A stretch of 64,000 bases of DNA, from contig CP070761.1 of assembly GCA_020348985.1 (NCBI GenBank), forward strand, positions 1,866,246 through 1,930,245, written 5' to 3'. A model generated the notes under the pieces. It was not told the origin of the DNA. It made no database searches and saw nothing but the letters and a program-made list of their open reading frames with translations. The translations under genes and the position numbers were made by a program. The DNA is from Candidatus Thorarchaeota archaeon. Its GTDB lineage: Archaea > Asgardarchaeota > Thorarchaeia > Thorarchaeales > Thorarchaeaceae. Shown piece after piece: positions 1,005 to 39,501 of this stretch. Each line of letters starts with the position of its first letter. The stretch's first letter is position 1.

Positions 1005-2180
1005 CTAGTCAATCTCGTTTCTACCAGGAATTCCGCCGTATCTGCTGGACGACCCTGTGTTCAGGAGAACTACGTCCTCGTCATAGTCTATAACGCCAGT
1101 ATCCACAAGATTCCGAAGGCCCGCTAGCCCAATTGCCGCTTCTGGACAGAAATCCAATCCCTCAAGTCTAGCGGCCATCCACTGACACGACTCAATCTCT
1201 GAATCAGTGGCTGCTACCGCTCCTCCCCCTGATCGTTGGATGACTTTCATCATTAACCTATCAGCGAAAGGCTTCGGGACTCTCAACCCATATGCTCTGG
1301 TTTCGCCTCTAGGCCATGCTTCAATCTCTTCTGTACCTCTTTCGAATGCTCTAACGACAGGTGCACAGCCTCCGCTCTGAACAGCATACATTCTAGGACG
1401 TCTGTCGTCAATTAGCCCAAGGGTCTCCAACTCCTCGAAGCCTTTCCATATGCCAATCAAAGACGTTCCTCCTCCTGTTGGACATATGACCACATCCGGA
1501 ACCGTCCATCCCATCTGTTCAGCAATCTCAAATGCCATTGTCTTTTTGCCCTCAACGCGATATGGCTCCTTAGTAGTACTCAAGTCTGTCCAACCACCAT
1601 CCCGCACTTGCATCTCTGCAGCTGCATCCACAATGGTTCCCTCAACCAAGATCACCTCAGCTCCAAACGCCCGACAACTATCTATGAACTGCTGAGGCGT
1701 ATCTTCAGGCATGAAGGCATGGGCTGAAGTTCCACTTGCGGCACAATACGCACTCATCGATACTGCGGCATTCCCAGCAGATGGAAGCGCGAAAGAGTCG
1801 ACTCCCATTTCTAGATGTTTCGAGATTGCTGCGCAGAGACCTCGGTCCTTGAAGCTTAAAGTTGGATTCTTTGCTTCATCCTTTATTCTTAGCATTCTAA
1901 GTCCCAAATGTGTGCCCAATCGTCGTGTCAGAAGAAGCGGTGTCCAGCCCTCGCCAAGACTTACAACGAATGATGGCGACTTGACGGGAAGTAGCTCGGA
2001 GTATCTCCACATTGAATTCGCTGACGATGGGAACTCTCCAGATTCGATCGCCTCAACCACACCTCTCATGTCGTATCTTGCGAACAAAGGCGTCCCGCAA
2101 AGGCAGTATGTCGCAGGCATTTCTGCGGAATGCTTTCTTCCACATTGCGGACACTCTAGATGGGAGATGTGTGATATCAC
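1005..2180 (-). CDS. thrC: Threonine synthase (PLP fold II) with N-terminal Zn ribbon
   Basis: SLGEGWTPL, NPTLSFKDRG (PLP lysine), SAGNA, PYRVEGKKTM, PTGGG. Confidence 0.9.
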   Translation of the reverse strand: MISHISHLECPQCGRKHSAEMPATYCLCGTPLFARYDMRGVVEAIESGEFPSSANSMWRYSELLPVKSPSFVVSLGEGWTPLLLTRRLGTHLGLRMLRIKDEAKNPTLSFKDRGLCAAISKHLEMGVDSFALPSAGNAAVSMSAYCAASGTSAHAFMPEDTPQQFIDSCRAFGAEVILVEGTIVDAAAEMQVRDGGWTDLSTTKEPYRVEGKKTMAFEIAEQMGWTVPDVVICPTGGGTSLIGIWKGFEELETLGLIDDRRPRMYAVQSGGCAPVVRAFERGTEEIEAWPRGETRAYGLRVPKPFADRLMMKVIQRSGGGAVAATDSEIESCQWMAARLEGLDFCPEAAIGLAGLRNLVDTGVIDYDEDVVLLNTGSSSRYGGIPGRNEID

Positions 2181-25966: not shown

Positions 25967-28570
25967 ATGAGTGGGACCAAAGAGGGAAGAGCGCAGACCC
26001 CAAGCACAGTTGAAGCAATAAGAATGGCCTCAGCGTCCATACTTGCTACCTCAACCGGAAGAGGCTTTCCATTGGGGAGTGCTATTGGCTCTGGAAGAGT
26101 CATGGAAGAGAACTCCGAGCTTGTAGCAATGAACGTTGCCTCATTGATTTTCGCCATTCGAGATCCCTTAATGAACAATGAAGGGTTGGATCTTCTAGCC
26201 CTTGAATGGAACTTGGATCATCCTCCTGGATCAAGAGTATTGCCGGAACAGCTCATTGTTGCCGGAGGTTTCGCGCAGGGAGTAGGGTCTCATGTCTGCG
26301 TTCTCAGCTGGGAGCGGGGGGTCATTGATCCCTTCAAGATCGACGACCACATGAAGACTCTCTCAAAAAAGATCTCAGACATCGAAGCGGCAGTGATTCA
26401 CAACAATCTTCCCTATGAAAAGGAAGGTCTAATGGTCCTAAGACGATTCAACGACCGACTGAACAGTGTTATCTTTGTTGAGATGATGGACAGAAGATTC
26501 CAAGGTTCATGGGATTCCCTTCAAATCAAACCCGACCATGTTGACAACCAGCTGCAAATCAAGATGAACATCAAAGAGGACTTCACGTCAAGACCTCCAG
26601 GGACAAAGGTTGTTTCGCGAAAGGAGATAGATTTCCTCAAGCCAGCAGCAGACGAATCAGCTTTGATCGAACACTTCAAACATAGGTTACTGACTCCTGC
26701 TGCTGTAGAGGCGTTGACCGTTACTATTCCAGAAACTGGACGGGCAATACTGAGTGAGATAAACACTCATGCATATTCCTCTGAGGAGATTGCCTCAGCT
26801 GGCATCGCTGTCAAGTACTTGCGTGAATACGCGGGAACTGATTCCGTCGCGCTCACCGAGATTGATGAAATCGTCACCAAGAGTGAAGAGTATTCCAAAC
26901 TCTTGGAGGACGCAGTTGCCGTCTTCGAGGAGATTGTTGAACACCATATCTCATCTGGAAAAACTCTGACCATGGCGAATCACAAGAACGAACTATTCAA
27001 CCTAATCTCATCAAGGAGTTCAGATCTGACCAGCATCAAGGAGAAGATTGTCACATCATTAGTTGAAGAGATGACTCTCTCGGTATCAAGAGAGCTGCCC
27101 GGAGGCGGCGAAGTCCGGGCGTGGCAACTCAAAAGTATGATGCGCTACTTTGTCGCTTACGCTAAACGTGTGGTCCAGTACTTCTCCCCGGAGCTTGGAG
27201 AGTACCTGGTTGTGGCTGGAGCAAGGAAGGTTCTTGTGGCTGCATTCAACGAATTCAAGCAAGAGCTGACCGGCGAGAGCGTAGATGCCATAGACCGGCT
27301 CCTAACAAATAAGTTCGGCGCCGAACTAATAGCACAACTCAACGCGATCTTCGACAGAAAGGCTTTCGAAGGGTCGAAGGAAACCCGCGTGGACAAACTG
27401 ACGTCAGAAGCGGCGACGGAAATGGTCAATGCTTTCAAAGAGATAGATGTCTGGAGCCTTGTCAAGTTTGCAGACTTGGCCGAGACTGCACGAAGTGACA
27501 TCGCACAGGAGCCAAGTGAACCAACTCCAGTTAGTGATGCGATTTCAGAAGATTCTCAAAGTGGCATCGCGGACCTCCTGTTAAGTTATGAATTACTAGC
27601 AACAGAAACCATTCCTGATGTTGCTCAAACAGTTCTTTCAAAGTCGATTCTTGAACGCACAATCGAGAATGCGACTAGTGGCAGTAGTCTTTCTGACGGG
27701 CTTCTGGCGGCGGTCAACGAGATTCCGGACAAGGCGCCAGAGTGGACATCCCTAGCTCATGAATGGATTGCAGAGTTCTGGAACCAATTGGATCTGAATC
27801 TGCCCCTCTCATCCCAGCTCACAGCATTCGCAAAGCATGTTCATGAAAAGGCGACTAAGGCTTCAGGTCCCCGAATTGTAGTAGATCGAGTGGTGGAAGA
27901 AGCCAGACATCTTGAGGAGAAGTTTGAAGAGAAGGTCAATGAATGGCGAGAAGAATGCAATAGGATAGAGCAAGAGAATGCAGAGATTGAAGCACATAAC
28001 AAAAGGCGACATTCTGCTATTGAAGAAACAACTGCACAATTCGAGACTGAACAGGAAGTGTACTCTCGTGAACTTCGAGCATATGAAGAAAGCAAAGAGG
28101 ATCCCGAGTCGACATTAGTTCAGCCCAGCCCCCCGGAACCAATTGAACCCCGGCTTGAGAGGGTAAAACACGATTATCCCTTGAAGGAGCTTCTGAGTCC
28201 TCCATCAAAGCCAGAGCCTTCGGATGAACTCCTTCGCTATCGGGATTTCAAGAATCTCCTTGTTGAGAAGCTCCAAGCTATGAGCGAAAGACAGGAGGCG
28301 CTTGAAAGCGCGTTTTCAGAGCGTCTTACACGACTTGCATCTGAAGGTGCAGACACATCTGGAGATGTTCGTATCGACATTACTGATTCATTCTTGGATC
28401 ACATAATGGACTCAGTTATACGTGGGATGGGCAGATTGCTCCCTCGCTCTACGCGCGCTTATCTAAGAAATCCGGAAGATCCGGGGTTGGTCTATCTTGT
28501 GACCTATGAACAACAAGGTGACGAGTTGATTGTAACCGTCGGTGACACTTTTCTAAGAGGTGATGCCTAA
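25967..28570 (+). CDS. Large hypothetical protein (possible Roadblock/longin-like N-terminus, helical body, coiled coil)
   Basis: 867-aa ORF, TAATG-coupled to the next gene. Confidence 0.7.
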   Translation: MSGTKEGRAQTPSTVEAIRMASASILATSTGRGFPLGSAIGSGRVMEENSELVAMNVASLIFAIRDPLMNNEGLDLLALEWNLDHPPGSRVLPEQLIVAGGFAQGVGSHVCVLSWERGVIDPFKIDDHMKTLSKKISDIEAAVIHNNLPYEKEGLMVLRRFNDRLNSVIFVEMMDRRFQGSWDSLQIKPDHVDNQLQIKMNIKEDFTSRPPGTKVVSRKEIDFLKPAADESALIEHFKHRLLTPAAVEALTVTIPETGRAILSEINTHAYSSEEIASAGIAVKYLREYAGTDSVALTEIDEIVTKSEEYSKLLEDAVAVFEEIVEHHISSGKTLTMANHKNELFNLISSRSSDLTSIKEKIVTSLVEEMTLSVSRELPGGGEVRAWQLKSMMRYFVAYAKRVVQYFSPELGEYLVVAGARKVLVAAFNEFKQELTGESVDAIDRLLTNKFGAELIAQLNAIFDRKAFEGSKETRVDKLTSEAATEMVNAFKEIDVWSLVKFADLAETARSDIAQEPSEPTPVSDAISEDSQSGIADLLLSYELLATETIPDVAQTVLSKSILERTIENATSGSSLSDGLLAAVNEIPDKAPEWTSLAHEWIAEFWNQLDLNLPLSSQLTAFAKHVHEKATKASGPRIVVDRVVEEARHLEEKFEEKVNEWREECNRIEQENAEIEAHNKRRHSAIEETTAQFETEQEVYSRELRAYEESKEDPESTLVQPSPPEPIEPRLERVKHDYPLKELLSPPSKPEPSDELLRYRDFKNLLVEKLQAMSERQEALESAFSERLTRLASEGADTSGDVRIDITDSFLDHIMDSVIRGMGRLLPRSTRAYLRNPEDPGLVYLVTYEQQGDELIVTVGDTFLRGDA

Positions 28571-31014
28571 TGTCCAGTTCATGGATTCTCAAAACTCGTC
28601 AGATGAGCGAGGCTGGCAAGGAAATACTTCTCAGAGAAGGACTGGCTACTCACATGAGAAGCACCAGGGATCGTCAGCAGGTGACCGATATTCTGAAGGA
28701 GAAGAGGCCACTTGAGGATATCCTTTCTTGGTTCTCTGCCTTCTGGCTCTATCACTATCAAGGGGTTCGCGTGCTCAGTTTCGAAGACGCCCAAGACCTA
28801 ACCGTTGAGAGAAAAGATGAGATGGAGCGCGAAGAGCGCAGGCACCTTGAGCTTGAGATTAGAAAGCTTTTGGGTGACAAACACAGAGAAGAGATAGACA
28901 TTGCACGGTTGGCTAGCGAACTGATTGTTCAGGTCTGCAATGAGTTGGGGGGTTCCAATATTGCTGAACCATCTACTCTCGAGAAATGTTCCGATATTGT
29001 CAAGAAGTTTCTTGGTGAGATTCCAAAGGACTACAGTCCTAATCACGACATCGATTTCATAGCCACAATCACAGGCTGGGCGTCAAAGTGGAGGGATGAA
29101 CTTTATACAAAGGCCTCTGGTCTAAAGGAGACTGCGCTCTCTCTTAGAGATGAGGTCCTTCGTGAACATCCTGCGGAAGTCATCGAAACATCTGTTTTGA
29201 GGCAGGCTACCAAGCAAATCCTCAATACTGACAACTACTTGGCTGGCCGATTGATTGCTGGTGGCATTTCGGAGAAGACGCTTGGCGATATATCAGAAGC
29301 TGTGCTCCACAGGGTGATTGGCGGAAGAGTGCCTGTGGAAACAGTTCGAAAAGCTCATGAGATTAGGCTAGAGACAATTGACTTCCTACTTGGCTCCTAT
29401 GAATCCCCAACAACGATTGAGGAATACGAGAAAACCCTTGGTGATGAATTGGCAAGGGGAGTTGCAGCGGGAATCAGGGACAATCCAGCAGAGGCATTTG
29501 GACTGCTTTCGGTACTTTTTGATCTGGATGCTGAAGATATCAAGGCGGCCCTTAGGTCAAAAGGACTCACTGATGCAGAGGATATCGCGGCCGGATTGAT
29601 TGAACAGGCCAAAGAGCCTACTCCTGAGGATGAAGGACCCCAAATCAGCGCTGAAGAGATGCAGGACCTAGAAAGGTCGCTAAAGCAGCTTGAGAAGTTG
29701 GAGAAGACTTTGGAGGGTCCAGTCAAGGGTATGCTGCGAGCCCAAGGACTGCGTCCATCAGAGCTCGATAAGATTACAGTCGAGTTCCTTCTCAAGGACA
29801 GAGACAGCCTACTGGGTATGGAACCAAAGGTGCTTGAGACACTGAAGCAGAATGCCCGAATCCCTTCGCCAAAAGAGATGGAGCGACTATTCCAAGTGCG
29901 GCAACAGGTTGAGAGCGGAGCTCTGAGTACAATGGGTGTGACTTCATCGTCTGAGATGATGCAACAGAGACGACAAGAGGAATCGTCCGGGGCGCTCAAG
30001 CTAGACTTGGTTTGGCATTTCACAATTGGTATACTCTCGAATCTCACAAGAGTGGTGGAGAGTTATATCAGGTCGAAGCAGGACCTGTTGAGAATGAAGG
30101 CTCTTCTGAAGAGCATTCACGAAGATACTGAGCCTGAACTTCAATATGCAAGAGAAGAGATTCTGGTCGATCTCGCATCAATGAGGATTTGCGAATTTAA
30201 ATGTGTGAATCCAGAGCTTGATGCATCAGCGGTATGCTCCTGGATGCACGCTCGTCTGTCAAGCAAAGACATGAATGCCGCCAAGGTTGAGCTTGAAAAG
30301 ACACCAAGCCCTGTCTATGATGGAATTTCCGACCTTCCTCTTGATCTTTCGAATCTGGAGTTTGACAACTACGGAATTGCCTACGACCTCATGCACAGGT
30401 TTCTGCAGCAAGAGCGTCTTGAGAAGATGGCAAAGGAAGAACACGCGATAGAGGTTGAGGCGGAGAAGCAGAGAGCACTCGAGGAAAGGCGCGGACGTAT
30501 TGACGCTATTTCTTGGATCGACACGAAGAGCAAGACTGTCTTCAGAGCCATAGGCAGAGTTGGGACAAAGGGGCTTGAATGGTCCGGAAATGATGAGACA
30601 AAGTGTTCCAATCTTCTGGCATTCTACATTCGACAGCACAGGGGACGTCCTGTGTGTATAGCCTGCGGAGATACTCCAGAAGATGGCAAGTGCCCGAGGC
30701 ATGGAACAGCGAACATTTCCGCAAGCGATGATATGGACACTTTGACTGTGTTCATCATGGAAGCTATCACCACAATGAAAACGAGCCTCATCGGGCCGAA
30801 AGCACAGCCAATGACATGGGATGAGGCTCGGAAGATTGTTCAGAAGACAATAGATGATGTCAAGCGAGACGGGAAGCTAACTTCGAAGACGAATCTGAAA
30901 GAACTGATGCAAGGTGACATCAACCACGTAGTAGGTCCCGCTATTGCCAAGGTCATTGGAAAATACTTTGACGAATCACTGCAATATGCAGCCAGACGTT
31001 CGGGCCTTTCATAG
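28570..31014 (+). CDS. Large hypothetical helical protein with CxxC...CxxH Zn finger
   Basis: 814-aa ORF containing CIACGDTPEDGKCPRH. Confidence 0.7.
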   Translation: MSSSWILKTRQMSEAGKEILLREGLATHMRSTRDRQQVTDILKEKRPLEDILSWFSAFWLYHYQGVRVLSFEDAQDLTVERKDEMEREERRHLELEIRKLLGDKHREEIDIARLASELIVQVCNELGGSNIAEPSTLEKCSDIVKKFLGEIPKDYSPNHDIDFIATITGWASKWRDELYTKASGLKETALSLRDEVLREHPAEVIETSVLRQATKQILNTDNYLAGRLIAGGISEKTLGDISEAVLHRVIGGRVPVETVRKAHEIRLETIDFLLGSYESPTTIEEYEKTLGDELARGVAAGIRDNPAEAFGLLSVLFDLDAEDIKAALRSKGLTDAEDIAAGLIEQAKEPTPEDEGPQISAEEMQDLERSLKQLEKLEKTLEGPVKGMLRAQGLRPSELDKITVEFLLKDRDSLLGMEPKVLETLKQNARIPSPKEMERLFQVRQQVESGALSTMGVTSSSEMMQQRRQEESSGALKLDLVWHFTIGILSNLTRVVESYIRSKQDLLRMKALLKSIHEDTEPELQYAREEILVDLASMRICEFKCVNPELDASAVCSWMHARLSSKDMNAAKVELEKTPSPVYDGISDLPLDLSNLEFDNYGIAYDLMHRFLQQERLEKMAKEEHAIEVEAEKQRALEERRGRIDAISWIDTKSKTVFRAIGRVGTKGLEWSGNDETKCSNLLAFYIRQHRGRPVCIACGDTPEDGKCPRHGTANISASDDMDTLTVFIMEAITTMKTSLIGPKAQPMTWDEARKIVQKTIDDVKRDGKLTSKTNLKELMQGDINHVVGPAIAKVIGKYFDESLQYAARRSGLS

Positions 31015-31028
31015 GACCAAACAGTGAT

Positions 31029-31346
31029 CTAATTCGCAGTGCTTGTGCTGATCCATTCTAGATAGGCCTTTGAACCACCTTGAATCGGAATCACAACAAA
31101 CTCAGGAACCTCATATGGGTGGTTGTCCCTAATCGCATCCCACAGTCTGTCCTGGAGTCGTTTCTCTGTTTTGATTAGGAGAATGCTCTCTGTATCCGTT
31201 TCCACTTTGTCCTTCCAGTGATAGATGCTTCTGACTCCACTAACGATGTTGACACATGCACAGAATCGGCCGTCCACTAGGATTCTCGCCAAATCTTCAG
31301 CCTTATCTGGCGGACATGTTGTTAATGCGAGAATATAGTTTTCCAT
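31029..31346 (-). CDS. cutA: Divalent-cation tolerance protein CutA
   Basis: ACVNI, SIYHWKDKV, HPYEVPE. Confidence 0.95.
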   Translation of the reverse strand: MENYILALTTCPPDKAEDLARILVDGRFCACVNIVSGVRSIYHWKDKVETDTESILLIKTEKRLQDRLWDAIRDNHPYEVPEFVVIPIQGGSKAYLEWISTSTAN

Positions 31347-31459: not shown

Positions 31460-32860
31460 ATGACTAAGCGTTTTGTCCCCCAAGGGGTGCTTCCAGCTCT
31501 TGTTACTCCGTTTACTAAAGATGGAGACCTCATAGAGGAGGGCTTCAAGCAAATCATCGATTACACAATTGAGAACGGAGCAACCGGTCTCGTGCCTGCA
31601 GGGACGACAGGTGAGTTCCTATATATGCGAACAGAAGAGCGGAAGAAGCTTCTGAAACTAACGGTCGAATTGGCAGAAGACCGAGTTCCAGTTATAGCAG
31701 GAACAGGTCAGAATTCGACAAGAGCCACGGTAGCTTTGACGAAGTATGCTGCGGACATTGGTTGTGCTGCAGCCCTTGTGGTTTCGCCCTACTTCCTTAG
31801 ACCCGAAGACAAGGGGTACTTCGAGCACTATGCTGAGGTGGCCCGGAGGGGTGATCTCCCTGTGATTCTGTATAACATCCCTCAATGTACGCTCGGCATT
31901 CTCCAGTCTAATGTTGTTGAGGACCTTGCCGAACTTGACAACATCGTGGCAATAAAAGACAGCAGCGGAAGCATTCCACATGTCTTGGAGCTCATTGAGA
32001 AGCTGAGAGGAAAGATGCCTGTCCTCATAGGACACGATGAGTGTTTCTTGTCGGCTGTGGCTGCAGGCGCAACAGCTGCAATCATGGCTTCAGGGAATAT
32101 AATGCCTCACATCTGGCTAGAGATAATGAAGAACATACGTAACGGTAACATCGAGAAAGCAGCAGAGCTCCAGCTCTCCGTGCAAACTCTTTCTAGGATA
32201 ATTACAAGGCATGGAGGTGCCCCTCCCGTAAAGGCAGCACTGAGAATGATGGGAATGAATGCTGGAAGAGCAAGAATGCCACTTAATTCCGGAGGCACAT
32301 TGACTTGGGAGCTTCGTGAGGAAATACGTTTGGAGCTTGAGAAACTGGGCCTCATCGATGAGTTGAGTCATGCACCAGTCATGGATGATGTGGATGTCAT
32401 CGGTTTGATTGACAGGTCTGGGGTTGACAGTTCGCGATTTGAGAATGTCAAGCGTAGCATTGGTGCATTTGAGTCTGTTTCCACAGACATCATTCTAGGC
32501 AAGAAAGATGGTCCTGTCGGCGAAGCCTTTGTGAAACTGATGATGAATCCGCAAGTAGGACATGAAGCCTTGAGCGTCATTCTTGAACCCAATCTGGCTG
32601 TGAGACCTAGCGCCATAATGATGCCCGCTCGGAAGATCAAATCGATGCGTCAGGCATCTCTCTTCTACGGTCCAGTTCAATCAGGAGCCGCAAAGGCAGT
32701 AGCTCGCCTCGTAGCTTCTGGAAGAATACCGTCTTCTGATTTTGATGATTCACTAATGATAATGGCCGTTGACATTGATCTCAATCTACGTGACAGAAGG
32801 ACGGCAACTAGTCACACCGAGAGAGCTGTCACTAAAGCTCTTGAGCAGCTGTGGAGGTGA
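31460..32860 (+). CDS. DapA/NAL-family class I aldolase fused to a degenerate Fae domain
   Basis: GTTGE, YNIP, IKDSSG. C-terminal DIILGKKDGPVGEAF...GHEALSVILEPNLAVRP...YGPVQSGAAKAVA matches Fae. Confidence 0.85.
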   Translation: MTKRFVPQGVLPALVTPFTKDGDLIEEGFKQIIDYTIENGATGLVPAGTTGEFLYMRTEERKKLLKLTVELAEDRVPVIAGTGQNSTRATVALTKYAADIGCAAALVVSPYFLRPEDKGYFEHYAEVARRGDLPVILYNIPQCTLGILQSNVVEDLAELDNIVAIKDSSGSIPHVLELIEKLRGKMPVLIGHDECFLSAVAAGATAAIMASGNIMPHIWLEIMKNIRNGNIEKAAELQLSVQTLSRIITRHGGAPPVKAALRMMGMNAGRARMPLNSGGTLTWELREEIRLELEKLGLIDELSHAPVMDDVDVIGLIDRSGVDSSRFENVKRSIGAFESVSTDIILGKKDGPVGEAFVKLMMNPQVGHEALSVILEPNLAVRPSAIMMPARKIKSMRQASLFYGPVQSGAAKAVARLVASGRIPSSDFDDSLMIMAVDIDLNLRDRRTATSHTERAVTKALEQLWR

Positions 32861-32865
32861 AACAG

Positions 32866-34341
32866 ATGTCGGAGGATTTCAGATTCAGAGGTGTGTTTCC
32901 TGCTCTTGTGACTCCATTTGGTGAGGACGGCGTTGATGAGGAGAAGTATAGGGGTCTGATTGACTACGTCATAAGAAGTGGTGCCACCGGGCTTGTCCCT
33001 TGTGGGACTACTGGTGAATTCACAAGCATGAGATTCGAGGAGAGAGTAGATGCAATTCGAATTGCCTGTGACGCAGCAGAAGGTAGAGTCCCCGTTATGG
33101 CCGGCACCGGAGCTCCAAACACTCGTGATGCAATCAAGCTGACGAAGAGAGCAGCTGAGTTTGGAGCAGAGGCCGCTCTGGTTGTTTCCCCGTATTTCCT
33201 CAAGCCTACTACAAAAGAGATCTATGAGCACTATGAGAAGATTGCTAGTTCAAGTGACATCCCTATTTTCCTTTATAACATTCCACAGGTGACCGGTGTG
33301 CCTCTCGACTGGTGGCTGGTCGATGGTCTCAGAGAGATTGACGGCGTTGCGGGAATGAAAGATTCGAGTGGCAATCTGATTAACTTGACAACAGTTCTAG
33401 TCAGACGACCTGAGGAATTCCAAGTTGTGGTTGGCCATGATGAGGTAGCACTCCCCGCGTTGGCTTCAGGTTGCGATGGGGCGATCTTGATGAGCGCCAA
33501 TGTGTTTCCTGACCGCTACATAAAGATGCAAACCGCTCTTGCCAGGGGAGATCTGAAAGAGGCATTTCTTGTTCAGCGGAGCATCCAGAAGACAATCCGG
33601 CTTCTGGTCAACCGAGGGGGAGGAATGGCAATAAAGGCGGCCCTCAACATGATGGGTGTCCCAGTCGGAAAAGCAAGGGGACCGCTCATCGAAGGTGACA
33701 TACTCCGCTACGAAGACATTGATGAATTGAGAACATGTCTTGAGGATCTGCAACTGATCCCGCGCGGTACTGTCACTTTCAAGGCTGGAGAGAAAGCCAT
33801 AGTTTCAGAAGGCTACCCAAAGGCAGTTGGACTAGTTCCCGATTCGGTCCCCGACTTGACTCTCCTCCACGGCGAGGCACTTGCTGGAGAGGGCCAAGAG
33901 GTAGCACATGTCGATCTTGTCATGGGTCTCAAGGACGGACCTCTTGCTGTCGCCATTGACAGTGCAGACAAGATTGAGGAAGGATTCCACCCTTCCAATG
34001 TCATAAAGGACCTAGAACCACTAACGGTCTTCGCTCCAACAGTAACAATTGTTGACGAGAGCCACAAGACGATGGTGTATGACACTGCCCAGAGGGCCGT
34101 GGCGGACGCAGTCAGACGCACAGTCACTGATATGATTATACCCGAAGAGCTGATACCGGACATCGCAATAGCGGTGAATACGTTCGTGCATCCAAACGCA
34201 AACAATCCAAGGAGAGTACACATCAACAACTTCAGAGCAACGAGGCATGCCATACGCAGAGCAATCGAACGCAGACAAGACATAGAAGAAATTGCTGCAC
34301 GGATAGATTCGGCACGACACCCATTCGCCTACAATCCTTAG
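32866..34341 (+). CDS. DapA/NAL-family class I aldolase fused to a formaldehyde-activating enzyme (Fae) domain
   Basis: GTTGE, YNIP, MKDSSG. C-terminal GEALAGEGQEVAHVDLVMG...AQRAVADAV...FVHP...NFRATRHAIRRA...ARHPF is the Fae signature. Confidence 0.9.
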   Translation: MSEDFRFRGVFPALVTPFGEDGVDEEKYRGLIDYVIRSGATGLVPCGTTGEFTSMRFEERVDAIRIACDAAEGRVPVMAGTGAPNTRDAIKLTKRAAEFGAEAALVVSPYFLKPTTKEIYEHYEKIASSSDIPIFLYNIPQVTGVPLDWWLVDGLREIDGVAGMKDSSGNLINLTTVLVRRPEEFQVVVGHDEVALPALASGCDGAILMSANVFPDRYIKMQTALARGDLKEAFLVQRSIQKTIRLLVNRGGGMAIKAALNMMGVPVGKARGPLIEGDILRYEDIDELRTCLEDLQLIPRGTVTFKAGEKAIVSEGYPKAVGLVPDSVPDLTLLHGEALAGEGQEVAHVDLVMGLKDGPLAVAIDSADKIEEGFHPSNVIKDLEPLTVFAPTVTIVDESHKTMVYDTAQRAVADAVRRTVTDMIIPEELIPDIAIAVNTFVHPNANNPRRVHINNFRATRHAIRRAIERRQDIEEIAARIDSARHPFAYNP

Positions 34342-34947: not shown

Positions 34948-37900
34948 CTAGTAGCCTTGGAGATACTCCATGTGCTCAAACCATCTCTCATCAGGCGAGA
35001 ACTCCTTAACTCCTAGTTCTCTCAAACGGGTCTGAATGCTCTTGATAGCCGTAGCGTCTTTGGTTTCTCGATAGAGGACTAGAAGATTGCTGAGAATCTT
35101 GACAAATGCAGTTTGGTGAAACCTCGGCTCCTTCAGTGCAAAAGGTTCCAATGTATCGAGAGCTTCTTTGCACATCTTTTCTGATTTCTTAGAATGGCCT
35201 GTTCTTCTATAGTATATTCCGAGGTTGTTTAAAATCGACGCAACTCTAGGCAGAAAGAAGCTCTCTGAATCATCTACATAACTCCTGTGGATCTCAAGCG
35301 CTTTCAAGAATCTTGATTCTGCCTCTGGTATGCGGTTGTTTTCGCATAGAAGAATACCGGTGTTGCTTTCTATTGCAGCAACAGAGTAGAGAAACATCTC
35401 AGGAGCAAAACCAATACGCGCGTCGATCACACCTCTTGCCTCTTCCAGCAGCCTCTCAGCATCAGTCCATAGTTCGTTTCTCTTATAGAATACTCCTAGA
35501 TTGTTGGCAACATTCCCATAGACCTCAGCCAATGACGCCGCTTCCGGATGCTTCAGAGACACATCCTTTGCCATCTCATATGCCTCTAGAAGCGTTTCTT
35601 GCACGCCCTTCACTTTGCCCATCCGACAATGCAACACACCTAGATTATTCAGGGCCGCAGCCAGTCGATGCGTGTATCTCTCTGGGTAGTTCTCTACAAG
35701 TGCTCTTAGCAGTCTGATTGACTCTAGACAGGCGTTTTCAGCTTCATGTAATCTGTCTGAAGAAACCAAGAGATTCGAATAATCCTGCAGAGTCTTGGCA
35801 AGTGGTTGAGAATATGGTTTCTCCTCCTCAAGCATCACCCTAAGTTCTCGAATCACTTCTCTGAAGACTTCCTCTGCTTCCTGATATTGACCTGTCTGAA
35901 AGAGTGGAAGTGCCAAGCTGCTTTCTGCCATTGTCACTTGAGCTTGCATACCCGATTGTTCCAGAGCAAGCTTCTTGTAAGCATCTACTACTGCCTTCCT
36001 CACTTCAAGTTGTTCGATATGTCTGTGCTGAAGACGTAGAGTAATTCCAAGACGACCAAGTGTCATGTTTCTTATGACTAATTCATCGCTTGATTCTAGG
36101 ACATCTCTGAGGATTGTTTCAGCTTCTGAAGTCTTTCCGGAAATGTACAGCACCTGAGCCAAAAGGATTCGTGCGAATTGGAGCATTGGATAGGTTCCTT
36201 CTTCTGGGCTATAATGAGGTCTCCTATCTTCATTCTCCAAGATGACTAAGGCTTTTCTAACGCATCTCTCCGCTTCTTCCAGACGATACATCAGTGATAG
36301 ATGTTGTCCTAGATAGTGATAGGTCGAAGCCAAATAACCCTCTTTCATGTGTATATGCCTATCATCTTGTGGGTCAAACGTATTCAACATCTCTAGTGTT
36401 CTTCGAAAAGCTTCTTCAGCTTCGTACATCTTGGCTGATTCTTGATAAAACCGAGCTTGAAACCAGAGTGCCTTTGAAAGGAATATTGCATTGTCATCAG
36501 AGAGTCTCTCAGAGATCTCAATGACTTTCTTGAGTGTGTCCTCGGCCTCTGCAATTCTATCAACTAGGCGGAAGAGGTAACTTCTCCAGCCTTCTCTCGC
36601 TATCAAGCCAATGTCTGACTTGATGAAGAACGAATCCAGCACTACAAGTGCGTCATCCCATTCATTTGCAAAGCCCAAAGCATCCAATACTTGTTCTAAT
36701 CTCATAAGAGTTCCAATTTCATCATCCAAAGCTAGCACGGATAATGCTAGGCCAAGGAGTCTGTAGTCTGCTTGATCTTGTGAAGCCCTTTCCAGTCGCT
36801 GACCGACCTCGTTCGCCAGATCTTTTAGATTTCCTCCAAGTTCAGCTCTCACAATTTCCTCTGCCAGATCATGGAGAACCCAAGTCCCGTCCTCTCTTCT
36901 ACTAAGGAAACTTAGGCGTCTTAGTCGATCCCAACTGTCTGGGGTCATTTCTGGAGCAATGATGCTCATTATTCGATAATCGAAATAGGGAACTAATCCT
37001 GCACGATTTATGAGATTGTGCAACCCTTCGGCATGACTAAACAGACGTCTCCATACTTTTAGGCGAACCTCAGCAAGAGTATCAGCACGGAGTCCTTCAA
37101 TGTCTTCTATAGACACGTTGCTGGTATTGATCATATCACATATGGCATCAATCAGGAAGGGATTTCCGCCACTGACACTCACAATTCTTTCTTGAAGCTC
37201 CTCATCAACAACGCCTTGAAGTGTGAGCATCTCGAGGCAACTATCCCTGTCCAGTTCTGTAAGCTCATTCTCTTCAACATCCAGTATCTTACCTTTCGCC
37301 GCTGAGCGTCTGCTTGCCATTACTCCTACGCAAGATGACAGATTGGACAAGAACAAAGCCCAGAGTTCTGTCTCAGTAATCCTCTCTCCACTGTATCTCC
37401 ACTGAGTCTTTTCATTGTCTACATACTCAAAATGGTCTAAAAGAAAGAGAAGCGCAATATTCGGATGATTTCTTGTATTGATATCCTCTAGAAATGCTGA
37501 AAGGTACAAAAACTCAGCACGTCTAGGATCCTTCCAGAGAATCTCAAGAAGCTGTTCGATGTGATTCTTGCCAAGTGTTTCCTGAAGCCATGTCCCAATC
37601 GTGCCGTATTTTCCTTTCAGCTTGGGAGTGACCTTTGCACCGACAGCGCTGATTGCACTTCCAATACTGGCAAGTGATCCAATGAACGGTATCGCCATTA
37701 CGACATCCTTCGCCCACTCACGTCCCTCTTCTCTTACCGGTTCTACACCTTCAACGAATCGTTGACGTATCTGCCAGAGTACGTCGAATCTTGGCAGCTT
37801 GACTCCGTGGAGCACAGCTCCTTTGGCAAGCATGTTTAGTCGTTGATAGAACTCAGAATAGTGCTCGCAATCAAGTCGTATTGCTTTCTCATGTGTGTTG

Positions 37901-38061
37901 ACCCAATGGTTGAGTAGGGACGATTTTCCGATACCCCCGATACCTTTCAGGTGAAGGACCACGCTTTCATCCTTGCATCTTTCGAGAGCATCATTCATCC
38001 ACTCGATATACTCCTCTCTATCCACGAACACATCATCGGAAGTTTCGTAGTGCTTGTACAA
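34948..38061 (-). CDS. STAND-type P-loop NTPase with C-terminal TPR array
   Basis: FVDREE, GIGGIGKS, LLDHFE, GGNPF, LHDL, and LNNLG-type TPRs. TTG start at 38061 chosen by alignment to the paralogue. Confidence 0.88.
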   Translation of the reverse strand: MYKHYETSDDVFVDREEYIEWMNDALERCKDESVVLHLKGIGGIGKSSLLNHWVNTHEKAIRLDCEHYSEFYQRLNMLAKGAVLHGVKLPRFDVLWQIRQRFVEGVEPVREEGREWAKDVVMAIPFIGSLASIGSAISAVGAKVTPKLKGKYGTIGTWLQETLGKNHIEQLLEILWKDPRRAEFLYLSAFLEDINTRNHPNIALLFLLDHFEYVDNEKTQWRYSGERITETELWALFLSNLSSCVGVMASRRSAAKGKILDVEENELTELDRDSCLEMLTLQGVVDEELQERIVSVSGGNPFLIDAICDMINTSNVSIEDIEGLRADTLAEVRLKVWRRLFSHAEGLHNLINRAGLVPYFDYRIMSIIAPEMTPDSWDRLRRLSFLSRREDGTWVLHDLAEEIVRAELGGNLKDLANEVGQRLERASQDQADYRLLGLALSVLALDDEIGTLMRLEQVLDALGFANEWDDALVVLDSFFIKSDIGLIAREGWRSYLFRLVDRIAEAEDTLKKVIEISERLSDDNAIFLSKALWFQARFYQESAKMYEAEEAFRRTLEMLNTFDPQDDRHIHMKEGYLASTYHYLGQHLSLMYRLEEAERCVRKALVILENEDRRPHYSPEEGTYPMLQFARILLAQVLYISGKTSEAETILRDVLESSDELVIRNMTLGRLGITLRLQHRHIEQLEVRKAVVDAYKKLALEQSGMQAQVTMAESSLALPLFQTGQYQEAEEVFREVIRELRVMLEEEKPYSQPLAKTLQDYSNLLVSSDRLHEAENACLESIRLLRALVENYPERYTHRLAAALNNLGVLHCRMGKVKGVQETLLEAYEMAKDVSLKHPEAASLAEVYGNVANNLGVFYKRNELWTDAERLLEEARGVIDARIGFAPEMFLYSVAAIESNTGILLCENNRIPEAESRFLKALEIHRSYVDDSESFFLPRVASILNNLGIYYRRTGHSKKSEKMCKEALDTLEPFALKEPRFHQTAFVKILSNLLVLYRETKDATAIKSIQTRLRELGVKEFSPDERWFEHMEYLQGY

Positions 38062-38364
38062 ACTCGGGACCTCACACGCAATGCACAAGAGATGTTTGTG
38101 TTTTACATAGGCTGGTCGGTTCTTATCATTTCTCCTTTGAATCTCATGGTCCTCTTCAGAAGAACAGATCTCAGCCCAAATCTCATTCTGTGAAAACGAA
38201 GTGGCGGTTTCCGCTGCTTACCGTCTAATCATCGCACTGTGCTCATACAGGGGTAACTGCTTCATTAACCGCCATGAGTACAGTGAAGTCAGAGCATATG
38301 AAACTAACTCGGCATCTTCAGGAATCTTATTATCAGACTTCGATTGCCGATGCTCGGTGCTCGA

Positions 38365-39501
38365 ATGACCAACAAGAAGCGCATGACTTCATTGCTGAGG
38401 GACTTGATTGCAGCCAGCTCTGAAAGCCCCCCGGGCGGTGAAAGAGAGGTTGCTGACATTCTTCGGAATCACTTGGAAGCACAAGGCATTTCGTGTGTTT
38501 CCGTTGGGCCCTCTGACCGACCCAATCTCATCTTCTCAAGCCACGACGGAGAAATTGGCCCCTTAGTCATGCACGGCCATATGGACACTGTGCCAGCTGG
38601 CCCAAAGGATAAGTGGACGCATGATCCCTTTGCCGGAGAGATTGTTGATGGCAAAATGTATGGTCGGGGTGCCTGCGATATGAAAGGGCCTGTCGCAGCT
38701 TTGACAGAAACGCTGATTCTCTACTCTGAGGAGAAGCATGAAATGCCTTTGCTTGTCCTAACAACCTCTGATGAAGAGACTGGATGCACTGGAGCAGAGA
38801 AGATCGCTCAAAGCGGAAAACTGAATGGAGTCAGTTATGGAGTCTGCGCAGAACCAACGAACCTCGGAGTTTTCGTTGGCGAGAAGGGAATACTCTGGTC
38901 GAAGGTGATCGCGAAGGGAGAGGCTGCACATGGATCAAGACCAGAAGAAGGTGTCAATGCGATAGAGCTTTGCATCGATGCCGTTCGCGTTCTTACAGAT
39001 GCGAAGTATGAATTTGAAGAGGACCCATTGTTGGGTGATTACACACTGAGTCTCGGGACGATCAAAGGGGGAGTCAAGGTCAATGTTGTCCCGTCTCAGT
39101 GTGAGGCCCAACTTGACATGCGATTGGTCCGGGGCCAGATTCCTGAGTCTATTCTTGAGCAGATGAGGATCAAGATAGCCGAGGCTGGGTTCTCAGAAAG
39201 AGTCCAAGTTGAGTACGTTCATGGTAAGAAGGCTGTTCGTACTGATGAAAACGAGGAGATTGTCAAGGTCAGTCTGGATGCAGTGGAAAAGGTGAGAGGG
39301 ACTCGCCCCATGTTGTCCACTGCCACCTATGGAACCGATTGTTCCGTTCTACAGCCAGAAGTTGGGATTCTGCACGCGATTTGCGGTCCTGGCTCGATAG
39401 AACAAGCTCATCAACCAGATGAATTCATTCCTCTGGACCAGTTCTTTGACTCAGTGGAAATCTACTTGCACATTGCAAGACATTTCTCGAGCAAATCCTA
39501 A
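38365..39501 (+). CDS. M20 metallohydrolase (ArgE/DapE family)
   Basis: GHMDTVP, GRGACDMKG, DEETG, AEPT, AHGS, AHQPDE. Confidence 0.92.
   Translation: MTNKKRMTSLLRDLIAASSESPPGGEREVADILRNHLEAQGISCVSVGPSDRPNLIFSSHDGEIGPLVMHGHMDTVPAGPKDKWTHDPFAGEIVDGKMYGRGACDMKGPVAALTETLILYSEEKHEMPLLVLTTSDEETGCTGAEKIAQSGKLNGVSYGVCAEPTNLGVFVGEKGILWSKVIAKGEAAHGSRPEEGVNAIELCIDAVRVLTDAKYEFEEDPLLGDYTLSLGTIKGGVKVNVVPSQCEAQLDMRLVRGQIPESILEQMRIKIAEAGFSERVQVEYVHGKKAVRTDENEEIVKVSLDAVEKVRGTRPMLSTATYGTDCSVLQPEVGILHAICGPGSIEQAHQPDEFIPLDQFFDSVEIYLHIARHFSSKS

What the first reader, a model, noticed from the sequence alone, without database searches (positions are those of the whole stretch)
31460..34341. Tandem DapA-family aldolase::Fae fusions, a candidate formaldehyde-channelling aldolase system
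Seen: two adjacent paralogous genes 5 nt apart. Each has an intact class I aldolase TIM barrel (GTTGE, catalytic Tyr in YNIP, Schiff-base Lys in KDSSG) followed by a Fae domain. Both have YNIPQ(C/V)T rather than the YNVP.RT of true DHDPS, so they lack the Arg that binds aspartate semialdehyde and are probably not lysine-pathway DapA. Established: Fae condenses formaldehyde with H4MPT; the well-known fusion is Fae-Hps of methanogens; Asgard archaea encode H4MPT-type Wood-Ljungdahl enzymes. I do not know of a characterised DapA-Fae fusion. Inference: a pyruvate aldolase that releases or fixes formaldehyde (e.g. 4-hydroxy-2-oxobutanoate <-> pyruvate + HCHO) and passes it to H4MPT, linking amino-acid catabolism to C1 metabolism, or acting as a C1-assimilation entry point.
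Basis: partly seen in the sequence, partly recalled or inferred. Interest (0 to 1): 0.9.

Follow-up and report, generated by a model that had tools for sequence, protein, structure and literature searches.

The report
Paired aldolase-Fae fusion enzyme genes
Two neighbouring genes of this Thorarchaeota genome, labelled in databases as the lysine enzyme DapA, each fuse a different pyruvate-type aldolase to half of a formaldehyde-activating (Fae) site; together they probably form one unstudied enzyme that moves a one-carbon unit between the archaeal carrier H4MPT and pyruvate, in the homoserine area of metabolism.

Summary
Gene A (31460-32860, 466 aa) and gene B (32866-34341, 491 aa), 5 nt apart and about 34% identical, each carry a DHDPS-family barrel and a Fae domain.

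They are not DapA. The aspartate-semialdehyde-binding Arg138 is Cys (A) or Val (B). The single-contig genome lacks DapB, Asd and homoserine dehydrogenase, and its third DHDPS-family gene is not DapA either.

Mch, Mtd and Ftr are present. These two domains are the genome's only Fae domains, and no Hps was found.

The two Fae domains keep complementary subsets of the canonical invariant Fae motifs. This fits one composite site at an A:B interface.

The pair occurs in about 76 of 86 Thor-family genomes, and as a pair in distant archaeal lineages. Two other Asgard families carry a single fusion with a complete Fae domain.

That single gene always follows an unknown, highly conserved barrel-protein gene. 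In Asgard families without H4MPT genes, the same barrel gene sits next to aminotransferase and homoserine dehydrogenase genes.

Best reading: a heteromeric aldolase/Fae enzyme interconverting 4-hydroxy-2-oxobutanoate with pyruvate plus methylene-H4MPT. Substrate and direction are inferred, not shown. This scan reached the same reading earlier on other genomes. I found no paper on this fusion.

The parts
31460..32860 (+). Gene A: 466-aa aldolase-Fae fusion, the subunit with the truncated Fae domain
   Evidence: ORF and translation; Pfam DHDPS + Fae; about 560 database relatives of its Fae part, nearly all with the same two domains and mostly labelled Thorarchaeota
31481..32290 (+). A, class I aldolase barrel (residues 8-277). 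Thr49/Thr50, Tyr138 and Schiff-base Lys166 are kept; Cys143 replaces DHDPS Arg138; Phe112 replaces Tyr107
   Evidence: Pfam PF00701 254 bits; column analysis against E. coli DapA
32477..32845 (+). A, partial Fae domain (residues 340-462). Keeps GHEALxVILEPNL and YGPVQSGAAKA. Lacks GEALxG; His->Thr here (Ser in most A); VFIHP->VDIDL; the C-terminal HPF segment is absent
   Evidence: Pfam PF08714 108 bits covering profile 13-135; alignment to 1Y5Y; column analysis
32866..34341 (+). Gene B: 491-aa aldolase-Fae fusion, the subunit with the His/Asp half of the Fae site
   Evidence: ORF and translation; Pfam DHDPS + Fae; C-terminal half 65-78% identical across 16 genera of the family
32884..33693 (+). 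B, class I aldolase barrel (residues 7-276). Thr48/Thr49, Tyr137 and Lys165 are kept; Val142 replaces Arg138; Phe111 replaces Tyr107; Trp149/Trp150 are specific to B
   Evidence: Pfam 245 bits; column analysis; model superposes on DHDPS structures, TM 0.95
33763..33819 (+). B, beta-hairpin in the inter-domain linker (residues 300-318)
   Evidence: AlphaFold2 model, strands 300-307 and 310-318, pLDDT above 90
33871..34326 (+). B, Fae domain (residues 336-487). Keeps GEALAG, AH348-V-D350-L, NTFVHP, NNFxA and SARHPF. Lost the VIRPN segment (5-residue deletion) and FGP (->YDT here, YEV in most Thor B). The Lys of AVAKA is Asp
   Evidence: Pfam 104 bits, profile 2-158; alignment to 1Y5Y; column analysis

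Best explanation
Genes A and B encode the two subunits of one heteromeric bifunctional enzyme. Each subunit has a catalytically intact Schiff-base (class I) pyruvate-type aldolase barrel of the DHDPS/NAL superfamily that is not DapA, fused to a Fae domain. The two Fae domains have each lost a different half of the canonical invariant residues, so only an A:B contact can rebuild one complete site for H4MPT and formaldehyde. The enzyme couples an aldol reaction at pyruvate with formaldehyde held as methylene-H4MPT: 4-hydroxy-2-oxobutanoate <-> pyruvate + methylene-H4MPT. This parallels the way Fae-Hps couples hexulose-6-phosphate cleavage to H4MPT. In this organism, which lacks aspartate-semialdehyde and homoserine dehydrogenases but has threonine synthase, the likelier direction is synthesis of the homoserine keto-acid. 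Shown: domain content, residue patterns, distribution, and gene and pathway context. Inferred: heteromer formation, substrate and direction. My confidence is about 0.6 that this is a non-DapA aldolase working with H4MPT-bound C1, and about 0.35 for the specific substrate and the homoserine role.
For: Both domains are present in both proteins. The aldolase catalytic residues Thr44, Thr45, Tyr133 and Lys161 (E. coli numbering) are kept in 96-100% of Thor A and B sequences, while Arg138 is Cys or Val. Fae motif retention is complementary. B keeps GEALxG, AHxDL, VFVHP, NNFxA and ARHPF. A keeps GHEALxVILEPNL and YGPVQ..AAKA. Canonical Asgard Fae-Hps and the single-gene Loki fusion keep all of them. 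Gene order A then B is conserved in Thor, a Korarchaeota/Thermoproteota MAG and two other lineages. The A/B split is older than these lineages. The genome has Mch, Mtd and Ftr. Its only Fae domains are these two, and no Hps was found over cut-off. No Thor-family genome has a canonical-scoring Fae. Every family found with the fusion (f1, f13, f22) has Mch, and the families without Mch that were checked have no Fae domain at all. DapB, Asd, Hom and ThrB were not found, whereas threonine synthase scores 478 bits against a cut-off of 303. Hom occurs in 3/85 Thor-family genomes against 76-78/85 for the pair. An unknown barrel gene lies directly upstream of the single fusion in families f22 and f13, with 77 both / 5 / 4 / 49 neither in f22. 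In the H4MPT-less families f8 and f11 the same gene lies next to an aminotransferase and homoserine dehydrogenase.
Against: There is no biochemical evidence of any kind. In Loki family f22, 35 of 82 fusion-bearing genomes also have homoserine dehydrogenase, so the fusion is not a simple replacement for it. No homoserine kinase was found to complete a route to threonine. In one lineage (GCA_003560875, L079) both subunits have lost the Schiff-base Lys and the TT motif but keep the Fae half-sites, so the aldolase chemistry is dispensable there. The barrel carries a GxDE motif (GHDE) that, from memory, resembles the sugar-binding motif of N-acetylneuraminate lyase; this would fit a larger aldehyde. 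That the Fae site lies between adjacent subunits of a pentamer is recalled from the 1Y5Y/1Y60 work and could not be re-read here. An A:B alternation cannot close a five-membered ring. In this genome the pair has no informative neighbours.
Confidence: 0.55

Rival explanations
1. The pair is simply the Fae of Thorarchaeota, serving formaldehyde detoxification or activation onto H4MPT. The aldolase barrels would act as a dimerisation scaffold or do unrelated chemistry.
For: Thor-family genomes have no canonical Fae; these are their only Fae domains. In the L079 lineage both barrels have lost Lys161, the TT motif and (in B) Tyr133, while the Fae half-site motifs persist. The Fae half of B is the most conserved part, at 65-78% identity.
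Against: The aldolase catalytic residues are kept in 96-100% of both A and B across Thor, Loki and Kor. In families f22 and f13 the fusion coexists with a canonical Fae-Hps, so it is not merely a Fae substitute. With no Hps, no other enzymatic source of or sink for formaldehyde was identified.
Confidence: 0.15
2. The aldolase acts on a larger 4-hydroxy-2-oxo acid, such as a 2-keto-3-deoxy sugar acid or 4-hydroxy-2-oxoglutarate. The Fae-like domains would then bind a pterin or another aldehyde for chemistry unrelated to formaldehyde.
For: A GHDE motif follows Gly186 in both subunits, as in the NAL-type GxDE (the comparison with NAL is from memory). Both Fae domains score below the NCBIfam Fae equivalog cut-off: 91.5 and 117.5 against 118.05.
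Against: The residues missing from one Fae domain are present in the other, and the single-gene form keeps all canonical Fae motifs. This argues for unchanged Fae chemistry. The fusion was found only in families with the H4MPT marker Mch. Val/Cys at position 138 plus Trp149/Trp150 in B suggest a small, apolar aldehyde pocket (inference).
Confidence: 0.15
3. Same enzyme, working catabolically: 4-hydroxy-2-oxobutanoate (from homoserine or a related compound) is split into pyruvate and a C1 unit that enters the H4MPT Wood-Ljungdahl branch.
For: This is the direction of Fae-Hps in methanogens (established knowledge). In H4MPT-less families the linked barrel gene sits with aminotransferase, homoserine dehydrogenase and an aldehyde:ferredoxin oxidoreductase. 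That set could oxidise homoserine to aspartate, a parallel disposal route.
Against: No source of 4-hydroxy-2-oxobutanoate was identified. The genome has threonine synthase but no known route to homoserine, which an anabolic direction would explain.
Confidence: 0.2
4. They are true 4-hydroxy-tetrahydrodipicolinate synthases (DapA) of lysine biosynthesis that happen to carry a Fae domain, as the databases label them.
For: Both exceed the NCBIfam dapA equivalog cut-off: 226 and 228 bits against 206. Their closest solved structures are DHDPS.
Against: Arg138 is Cys/Val in 93-95% of family members and Tyr107 is Phe in all B. DapB was not found in this single-contig genome, nor Asd in any of the three genomes of the genus; both searches hit 11-14 of the 14 control genomes. 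In the tree the fusions form their own clade apart from DHDPS (100/98).
Confidence: 0.03

Closest known systems
Archaeal bifunctional Fae-Hps (5,6,7,8-tetrahydromethanopterin hydro-lyase / 3-hexulose-6-phosphate synthase, NCBIfam NF009833)
   Same: A Fae domain is fused to a C-C lyase that releases or consumes formaldehyde. It occurs in H4MPT-containing archaea. The Fae motifs are shared: all of them in the single-gene Loki form, and split between A and B here.
   Different: Here the Fae domain is C-terminal and the partner is a Schiff-base DHDPS-family barrel rather than an OMP-decarboxylase-type Hps. This implies a 2-oxo acid rather than a sugar phosphate. The site is divided between two paralogous subunits. 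Score to NF009833 is only 76-87 bits against a cut-off of 274.
Formaldehyde-activating enzyme Fae of Methylorubrum extorquens (PDB 1Y5Y/1Y60; Pfam PF08714)
   Same: Clear sequence homology: B aligns over chain residues 8-168 (E 2.6e-18) with the His and Asp of AHIDL conserved; A aligns over 19-127 (E 1.6e-13).
   Different: Neither domain alone keeps all invariant positions. A lacks the N-terminal motif, the His and the C-terminal ~25 residues. B lacks the VIRPN segment. Both are fused to an aldolase. A homopentamer, as in Fae, is unlikely for a two-subunit form (inference).
4-hydroxy-tetrahydrodipicolinate synthase DapA/DHDPS (EC 4.3.3.7; TIGR00674)
   Same: Same fold (TM 0.95, 31-35% identity) and the same Schiff-base Lys, Tyr133 and Thr44/Thr45. 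Scores above the TIGR00674 cut-off, which explains the database label.
   Different: No Arg138, and no Tyr107 in B. The residues at the positions I recall as the allosteric lysine site also differ. Neither the substrate-forming enzyme (Asd) nor the next enzyme (DapB) is present in the genome.
Pyruvate + formaldehyde aldolases used in the synthetic 'homoserine cycle' (promiscuous 4-hydroxy-2-oxobutanoate aldolases; known to me from the literature, and the compound is discussed in PMC7918591)
   Same: The proposed reaction, pyruvate + formaldehyde <-> 4-hydroxy-2-oxobutanoate, followed by amination to homoserine.
   Different: Those are promiscuous side activities that use free formaldehyde. Here a dedicated natural enzyme would take the C1 unit from, or give it to, H4MPT. 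This was not tested here.

Membership tests
DapA / DHDPS (EC 4.3.3.7) | Schiff-base Lys161 with Tyr133 and Thr44/Thr45 | tested here: met
   Kept in both A (K166, Y138, T49/T50) and B (K165, Y137, T48/T49); 96-100% across the Thor family
DapA / DHDPS (EC 4.3.3.7) | Arg138, which binds the carboxylate of aspartate semialdehyde | tested here: not met
   Cys in A (95% of A sequences), Val in B (93%); 63% Arg in the 60 stand-alone DHDPS-like controls
DapA / DHDPS (EC 4.3.3.7) | Tyr107 of the catalytic triad, supplied across the tight dimer | tested here: not met
   Phe in 100% of B and in this genome's A (F112); Tyr in 80% of other A sequences
DapA / DHDPS (EC 4.3.3.7) | Pathway context: Asd makes the substrate, DapB uses the product | tested here: not met
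   DapB_C: no match in this genome. Semialdhyde_dhC: 0 of 3 genomes of the genus. Controls were positive in 11 and 14 of 14 genomes
DapA / DHDPS (EC 4.3.3.7) | Score above the curated equivalog cut-off (TIGR00674, 206 bits) | tested here: met
   226.1 and 227.7 bits. This is the source of the database label; the residue and context tests outweigh it
DHDPS/NAL class I aldolase superfamily (Pfam PF00701) | Profile match over the whole barrel, and the fold | tested here: met
   254 and 245 bits against a cut-off of 22; Foldseek TM 0.95 to DHDPS structures
Fae (Pfam PF08714 / TIGR03126) | Profile match above cut-off | tested here: inconclusive
   Pfam cut-off of 27 bits is met (108 and 104 bits). 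The NCBIfam equivalog cut-off of 118.05 is missed (91.5 for A, 117.5 for B)
Fae (Pfam PF08714 / TIGR03126) | Complete set of the positions invariant in canonical Fae (GEALxG, AHxDL, GH..VIRPN, FGPAQ..AVAKA, VFIHP, YNYxAT, HP near the C-terminus) | tested here: not met
   Neither domain alone has the full set, but A plus B together do. The single-gene Loki form has all of them
Fae (Pfam PF08714 / TIGR03126) | The organism makes and uses H4MPT | tested here: met
   Mch 427 bits, Mtd 366 bits, Ftr 176 bits in this genome. Mch is found in 78/85, 12/12 and 130/135 genomes of the three fusion-bearing families
Fae (Pfam PF08714 / TIGR03126) | Homopentamer with the active site between adjacent subunits | not testable with these tools
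   Only single chains can be folded here, and the structure paper could not be read
Fae-Hps bifunctional enzyme | Hps (3-hexulose-6-phosphate synthase) domain fused to Fae | tested here: not met
   No Hps domain in A or B. No Hps over cut-off in the genus: best 29.7 bits against 200
4-hydroxy-2-oxobutanoate (pyruvate + formaldehyde) aldolase activity | Catalysis of pyruvate + formaldehyde <-> 4-hydroxy-2-oxobutanoate | not testable with these tools
   Needs an enzyme assay. Only context evidence is available

The most novel reading that the evidence does not exclude
Thorarchaeota, and part of the Loki-type Asgard archaea, possess a natural C1-assimilating branch. Methylene-H4MPT from the Wood-Ljungdahl pathway would be added to pyruvate by a split-site aldolase/Fae heteromer, giving 4-hydroxy-2-oxobutanoate. 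This would then be aminated to homoserine and feed threonine and methionine synthesis, replacing the universal aspartate-semialdehyde route. The unknown conserved barrel protein (P0307 family) would be a further enzyme of the same pathway.
Probability: 0.3. Interest if true: 0.9.

Novelty: new variant of a known kind. Interest (0 to 1): 0.72.

Why it matters
If the reading is right, this would be a natural, dedicated pyruvate-formaldehyde aldolase wired to a C1 carrier. So far that reaction is known to me only as a promiscuous activity exploited in engineered 'homoserine cycle' methylotrophy.

It would also explain how very abundant sediment Asgard archaea can have threonine synthase without the aspartate-semialdehyde/homoserine dehydrogenase route. 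It would connect their Wood-Ljungdahl pathway directly to amino-acid carbon.

The pair would be a clear case of one inter-subunit active site divided between two paralogues after duplication.

In practice, several hundred database entries labelled '4-hydroxy-tetrahydrodipicolinate synthase' are probably mislabelled. That distorts reconstructions of lysine biosynthesis in Asgard archaea.

The linked, highly conserved barrel protein without any Pfam family gains a first functional context.

Tried and rejected
- **Ketopantoate synthesis** (an H4MPT-dependent analogue of PanB): rejected, because a normal PanB is present at 383 bits.
- **The third DHDPS-family gene as the real DapA:** rejected. G000:C1:1962630-1963544 lacks GTTGE and YNxP and looks KdgD-like.
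- **Neighbourhood of the pair:** CutA1, two large orphan proteins, a small ORF, a STAND-TPR gene, an M20 peptidase and an AIRC-domain gene. The synteny is shared only with close relatives and is uninformative. Distant lineages share nothing but the pair itself.
- **The Loki 427-aa upstream ORF as a degenerate A subunit:** rejected. It is an unrelated conserved protein.
- **Fold of that barrel protein:** only weak, scattered TIM-barrel matches (best E 4e-4, TM about 0.3), so no assignment.
- **The barrel protein as the missing homoserine kinase:** untestable this way. Canonical ThrB is rare in Asgard families both with it (5/22) and without it (0/6).
- **Neighbours of the ThrC paralogues and of the best aminotransferase homologue in this genome:** nothing informative.
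- **Expression:** no RNA holder listed among public runs.
- **Literature:** no paper combining Fae with DHDPS/DapA, or 4-hydroxy-2-oxobutanoate with archaeal enzymes. The Fae structure paper is not held.
- **Strict either/or of fusion and homoserine dehydrogenase:** does not hold in family f22, where 35 of 82 fusion-bearing genomes have both.
- **Family-f13 fusions in the tree:** my filter failed to pick them up, so they are absent.
Full report
**What is there**

The window holds two same-strand ORFs: 31460-32860 (gene A, 466 aa, P0001) and 32866-34341 (gene B, 491 aa from the ATG, P0002). A GTG at 32851 is possible, but orthologues start at the position of the ATG. The genes are therefore 5 nt apart.

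Pfam finds DHDPS (PF00701) followed by Fae (PF08714) in both proteins:

| Protein | DHDPS | Fae | Fae profile covered (of 159) |
|---|---|---|---|
| A | 1.3e-75 | 4.9e-31 | 13-135 |
| B | 8.7e-73 | 1.3e-29 | 2-158 |

A and B are about 34% identical. An AlphaFold2 model of B built on a 95-sequence alignment is confident (pLDDT 92.4, pTM 0.90). It shows a barrel (residues 1-295), a beta-hairpin linker (300-318) and the Fae fold. Foldseek superposes the barrel on solved DHDPS structures (TM 0.95, rmsd 1.4-1.9 A). No PDB chain covers both domains.

**The organism**

The window lies in a single 3.16-Mb contig. Relatives of both proteins are labelled Thorarchaeota.

**Not DapA**

Both proteins pass NCBI's dapA equivalog cut-off (226 and 228 bits against 206). 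This explains why several hundred relatives are named '4-hydroxy-tetrahydrodipicolinate synthase'.

I aligned 61 A-type, 31 B-type and nine distant family members, plus 60 stand-alone DHDPS-like proteins, to E. coli DapA taken from NC_000913.3.
- The general class I machinery (Thr44, Thr45, Tyr133, Lys161, Gly186) is kept in 96-100% of A and B.
- Arg138, which in DHDPS binds aspartate semialdehyde (established knowledge), is Cys in A (95%) and Val in B (93%).
- Tyr107 is Phe in all B and in this genome's A.

The genome has no DapB. The three genomes of the genus have no aspartate-semialdehyde dehydrogenase and no homoserine dehydrogenase. Each of these searches hit 11-14 of the 14 control genomes.

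The only other DHDPS-family gene in the genome lacks GTTGE and YNxP and is not a DapA. In a maximum-likelihood tree all fusions form one clade apart from DHDPS (100/98).

**The H4MPT side**

Mch, Mtd and Ftr are present. The two Fae domains of A and B are the only ones in the genome, and there is no Hps.

I scanned 400 Asgard genomes for Fae.
- In the Thor family (f1), 78 of 85 have Fae hits, almost always two, all at the modest scores typical of the fusion (best E no better than about 1e-35).
- Other families have canonical Fae-Hps at E about 1e-65 to 1e-72.

So Thorarchaeota have replaced, or never had, a canonical Fae.

**Complementary half-sites**

I aligned the Fae parts of A (61 sequences), B (31), distant pairs, and 30 canonical Asgard Fae-Hps.

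| Canonical motif (nearly invariant) | B | A |
|---|---|---|
| GEALxG | kept | lost |
| AHxDL (B: His348, Asp350) | kept | His->Ser/Thr |
| GH..(V/I)(I/L)(R/E)PN | five-residue deletion | kept (GHEALxVILEPNL) |
| FGPAQ | -> YEV | kept (YGPVQ) |
| AVAKA | Lys -> Asp (100%) | kept (SGAAKA) |
| VFIHP | kept (VFVHP) | -> LDIDL |
| YNYxAT | kept (NNFxA) | lost |
| RA | kept | lost |
| C-terminal HP | kept (ARHPF) | last ~25 residues absent |

The single-gene fusion of Loki-type genomes keeps every motif.

From memory of the 1Y5Y/1Y60 work, H4MPT binds between adjacent Fae subunits. I could not re-read that paper. If so, the pattern is what one expects when a duplicated gene pair divides one inter-subunit site, leaving an obligate A:B heteromer.

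The Fae half of B is much more conserved (65-78% identity across 16 genera) than that of A (about 50%).

**Distribution and age**
- The B-type gene is found in 76 of 86 Thor-family genomes.
- The order A then B recurs in a Korarchaeota/Thermoproteota MAG, in an ENA contig of an unnamed lineage, and in GCA_003560875.
- In the tree, B-types and the Loki single genes form one clade (98/98). The A-types of all lineages lie outside it. The duplication therefore predates these lineages, or the pair moved as a unit.
- A single complete fusion occurs in 82 of 135 genomes of Loki family f22, alongside canonical Fae-Hps. It also occurs in family f13.
- In GCA_003560875 both barrels have lost Lys161 and the TT motif, and B has also lost Tyr133, yet the Fae half-sites remain. 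There the aldolase chemistry is evidently dispensable. This keeps a 'Fae only' reading alive.

**Context pointing to homoserine**

The window itself encodes a convincing threonine synthase at 1008-2180 on the minus strand (478 bits against a cut-off of 303). Yet Hom, Asd and both known kinds of homoserine kinase were not found. Hom is present in only 3 of 85 Thor-family genomes.

A second line of evidence comes from a neighbour gene. In Loki the fusion is preceded, 35 nt upstream, by a 427-aa protein with no Pfam family (P0306). This holds in all 14 loci examined.
- Its Thor homologue (P0307, 65% identical) lies elsewhere in this genome, next to an ECF S-component gene.
- The family is very large and highly conserved.
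- It folds as a helical domain plus a TIM-like barrel, with no clear solved relative.

Across 400 Asgard genomes:

| Family | Barrel gene | Aldolase-Fae fusion | Hom | Mch | Arrangement |
|---|---|---|---|---|---|
| f1 (Thor) | 78/85 | pair, 76-78/85 | 3/85 | 78/85 | unlinked in this genome |
| f13 | 11/12 | single; 5 of 5 checked | 0/12 | 12/12 | barrel gene directly upstream of fusion |
| f22 (Loki) | 81/135 | single, 82/135 | 71/135 | 130/135 | barrel gene directly upstream; 77 both / 5 / 4 / 49 neither |
| f8 | 23/31 | no Fae domain (0/31) | 23/31 | 0/31 | barrel - aminotransferase - Hom - AOR - second aminotransferase; barrel vs Hom 22 both / 1 / 1 / 7 |
| f11 | 20/22 | no Fae domain (0/22) | 18/22 | 0/22 | same cluster; barrel vs Hom 17 both / 3 / 1 / 1 |

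AOR is aldehyde:ferredoxin oxidoreductase.

One conserved unknown enzyme thus partners with the aldolase-Fae fusion where H4MPT exists, and with aminotransferase plus homoserine dehydrogenase where it does not. The simplest common denominator is homoserine or its keto acid, 4-hydroxy-2-oxobutanoate. That keto acid is also the only product a pyruvate aldolase can make from formaldehyde.

These genomes are related, so the counts are descriptive and not statistical.

**Limits**
- In f22, 35 of 82 fusion-bearing genomes also have Hom. The fusion is therefore not a strict substitute.
- A kinase to reach O-phosphohomoserine is missing. Canonical ThrB is rare in Asgard families whether or not the barrel gene is present.
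- Direction (synthesis or breakdown), substrate and quaternary structure are all inferred.
- No RNA data were available, and no paper on the fusion was found.
- Earlier notes of this scan, on this stretch and on other genomes, reached the same reading. I repeated their main claims independently here: the half-sites, the Hom distribution and the barrel neighbour. I add the alternative aminotransferase-Hom neighbourhood of the barrel gene and its relation to Mch.

**Verdict**

This is a real, widespread and uncharacterised two-subunit aldolase/Fae enzyme that databases mislabel as DapA. It most likely exchanges a C1 unit between H4MPT and pyruvate. The homoserine role is a well-motivated hypothesis that enzyme assays could settle quickly.

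Noticed in passing
G000:C1:2675111-2676388 (-) (outside the window; L107:8112-9389; protein P0307); Loki copy L076:8683-9963 (P0306): A 426-aa protein family with no Pfam domain. It has more than 8000 database relatives, all named 'hypothetical', and is 74-88% identical within Thorarchaeota and 65% between Thor and Loki. The model shows a helical N-domain plus a TIM-like barrel with no clear PDB relative. Its gene neighbours either the aldolase-Fae fusion (families f22, f13) or an aminotransferase-homoserine dehydrogenase-AOR cluster (families f8, f11).
   Followed up: partly
L108:1181-7741, L109-L112 (Asgard families f8 and f11, which lack Mch and Fae): A conserved cluster: unknown barrel protein, class I/II aminotransferase, homoserine dehydrogenase, aldehyde:ferredoxin oxidoreductase, second aminotransferase. 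It might interconvert aspartate and homoserine through an AOR instead of aspartate kinase and Asd.
   Followed up: partly
window 1008-2180 (-): A convincing threonine synthase (NF006050, 478 bits against a cut-off of 303). The genome has two more ThrC paralogues, yet homoserine dehydrogenase, aspartate-semialdehyde dehydrogenase and both known homoserine kinase types were not found.
   Followed up: partly
L079:8544-11449 (GCA_003560875.1, contig PWJQ01000035.1): An A/B fusion pair in which both aldolase barrels have lost the Schiff-base Lys (to Ala and Leu) and the TT motif, while the complementary Fae motifs are kept. This looks like a natural 'aldolase-dead' version.
   Followed up: partly
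window 34948-38088 (-): A STAND NTPase-TPR gene lies between the fusion pair and the M20 peptidase gene (38344-39501). In other Thor genomes (L040, L042) the peptidase gene follows the pair after one or two small ORFs, so the STAND gene looks like an insertion in this genome.
   Followed up: no
window 25967-31014 (+) and 31029-31346 (-): Two large proteins without Pfam hits (867 and 814 aa, abutting genes) and a CutA1 gene precede the pair. The same arrangement is seen in two other Thor-type genomes (L040, L042).
   Followed up: no
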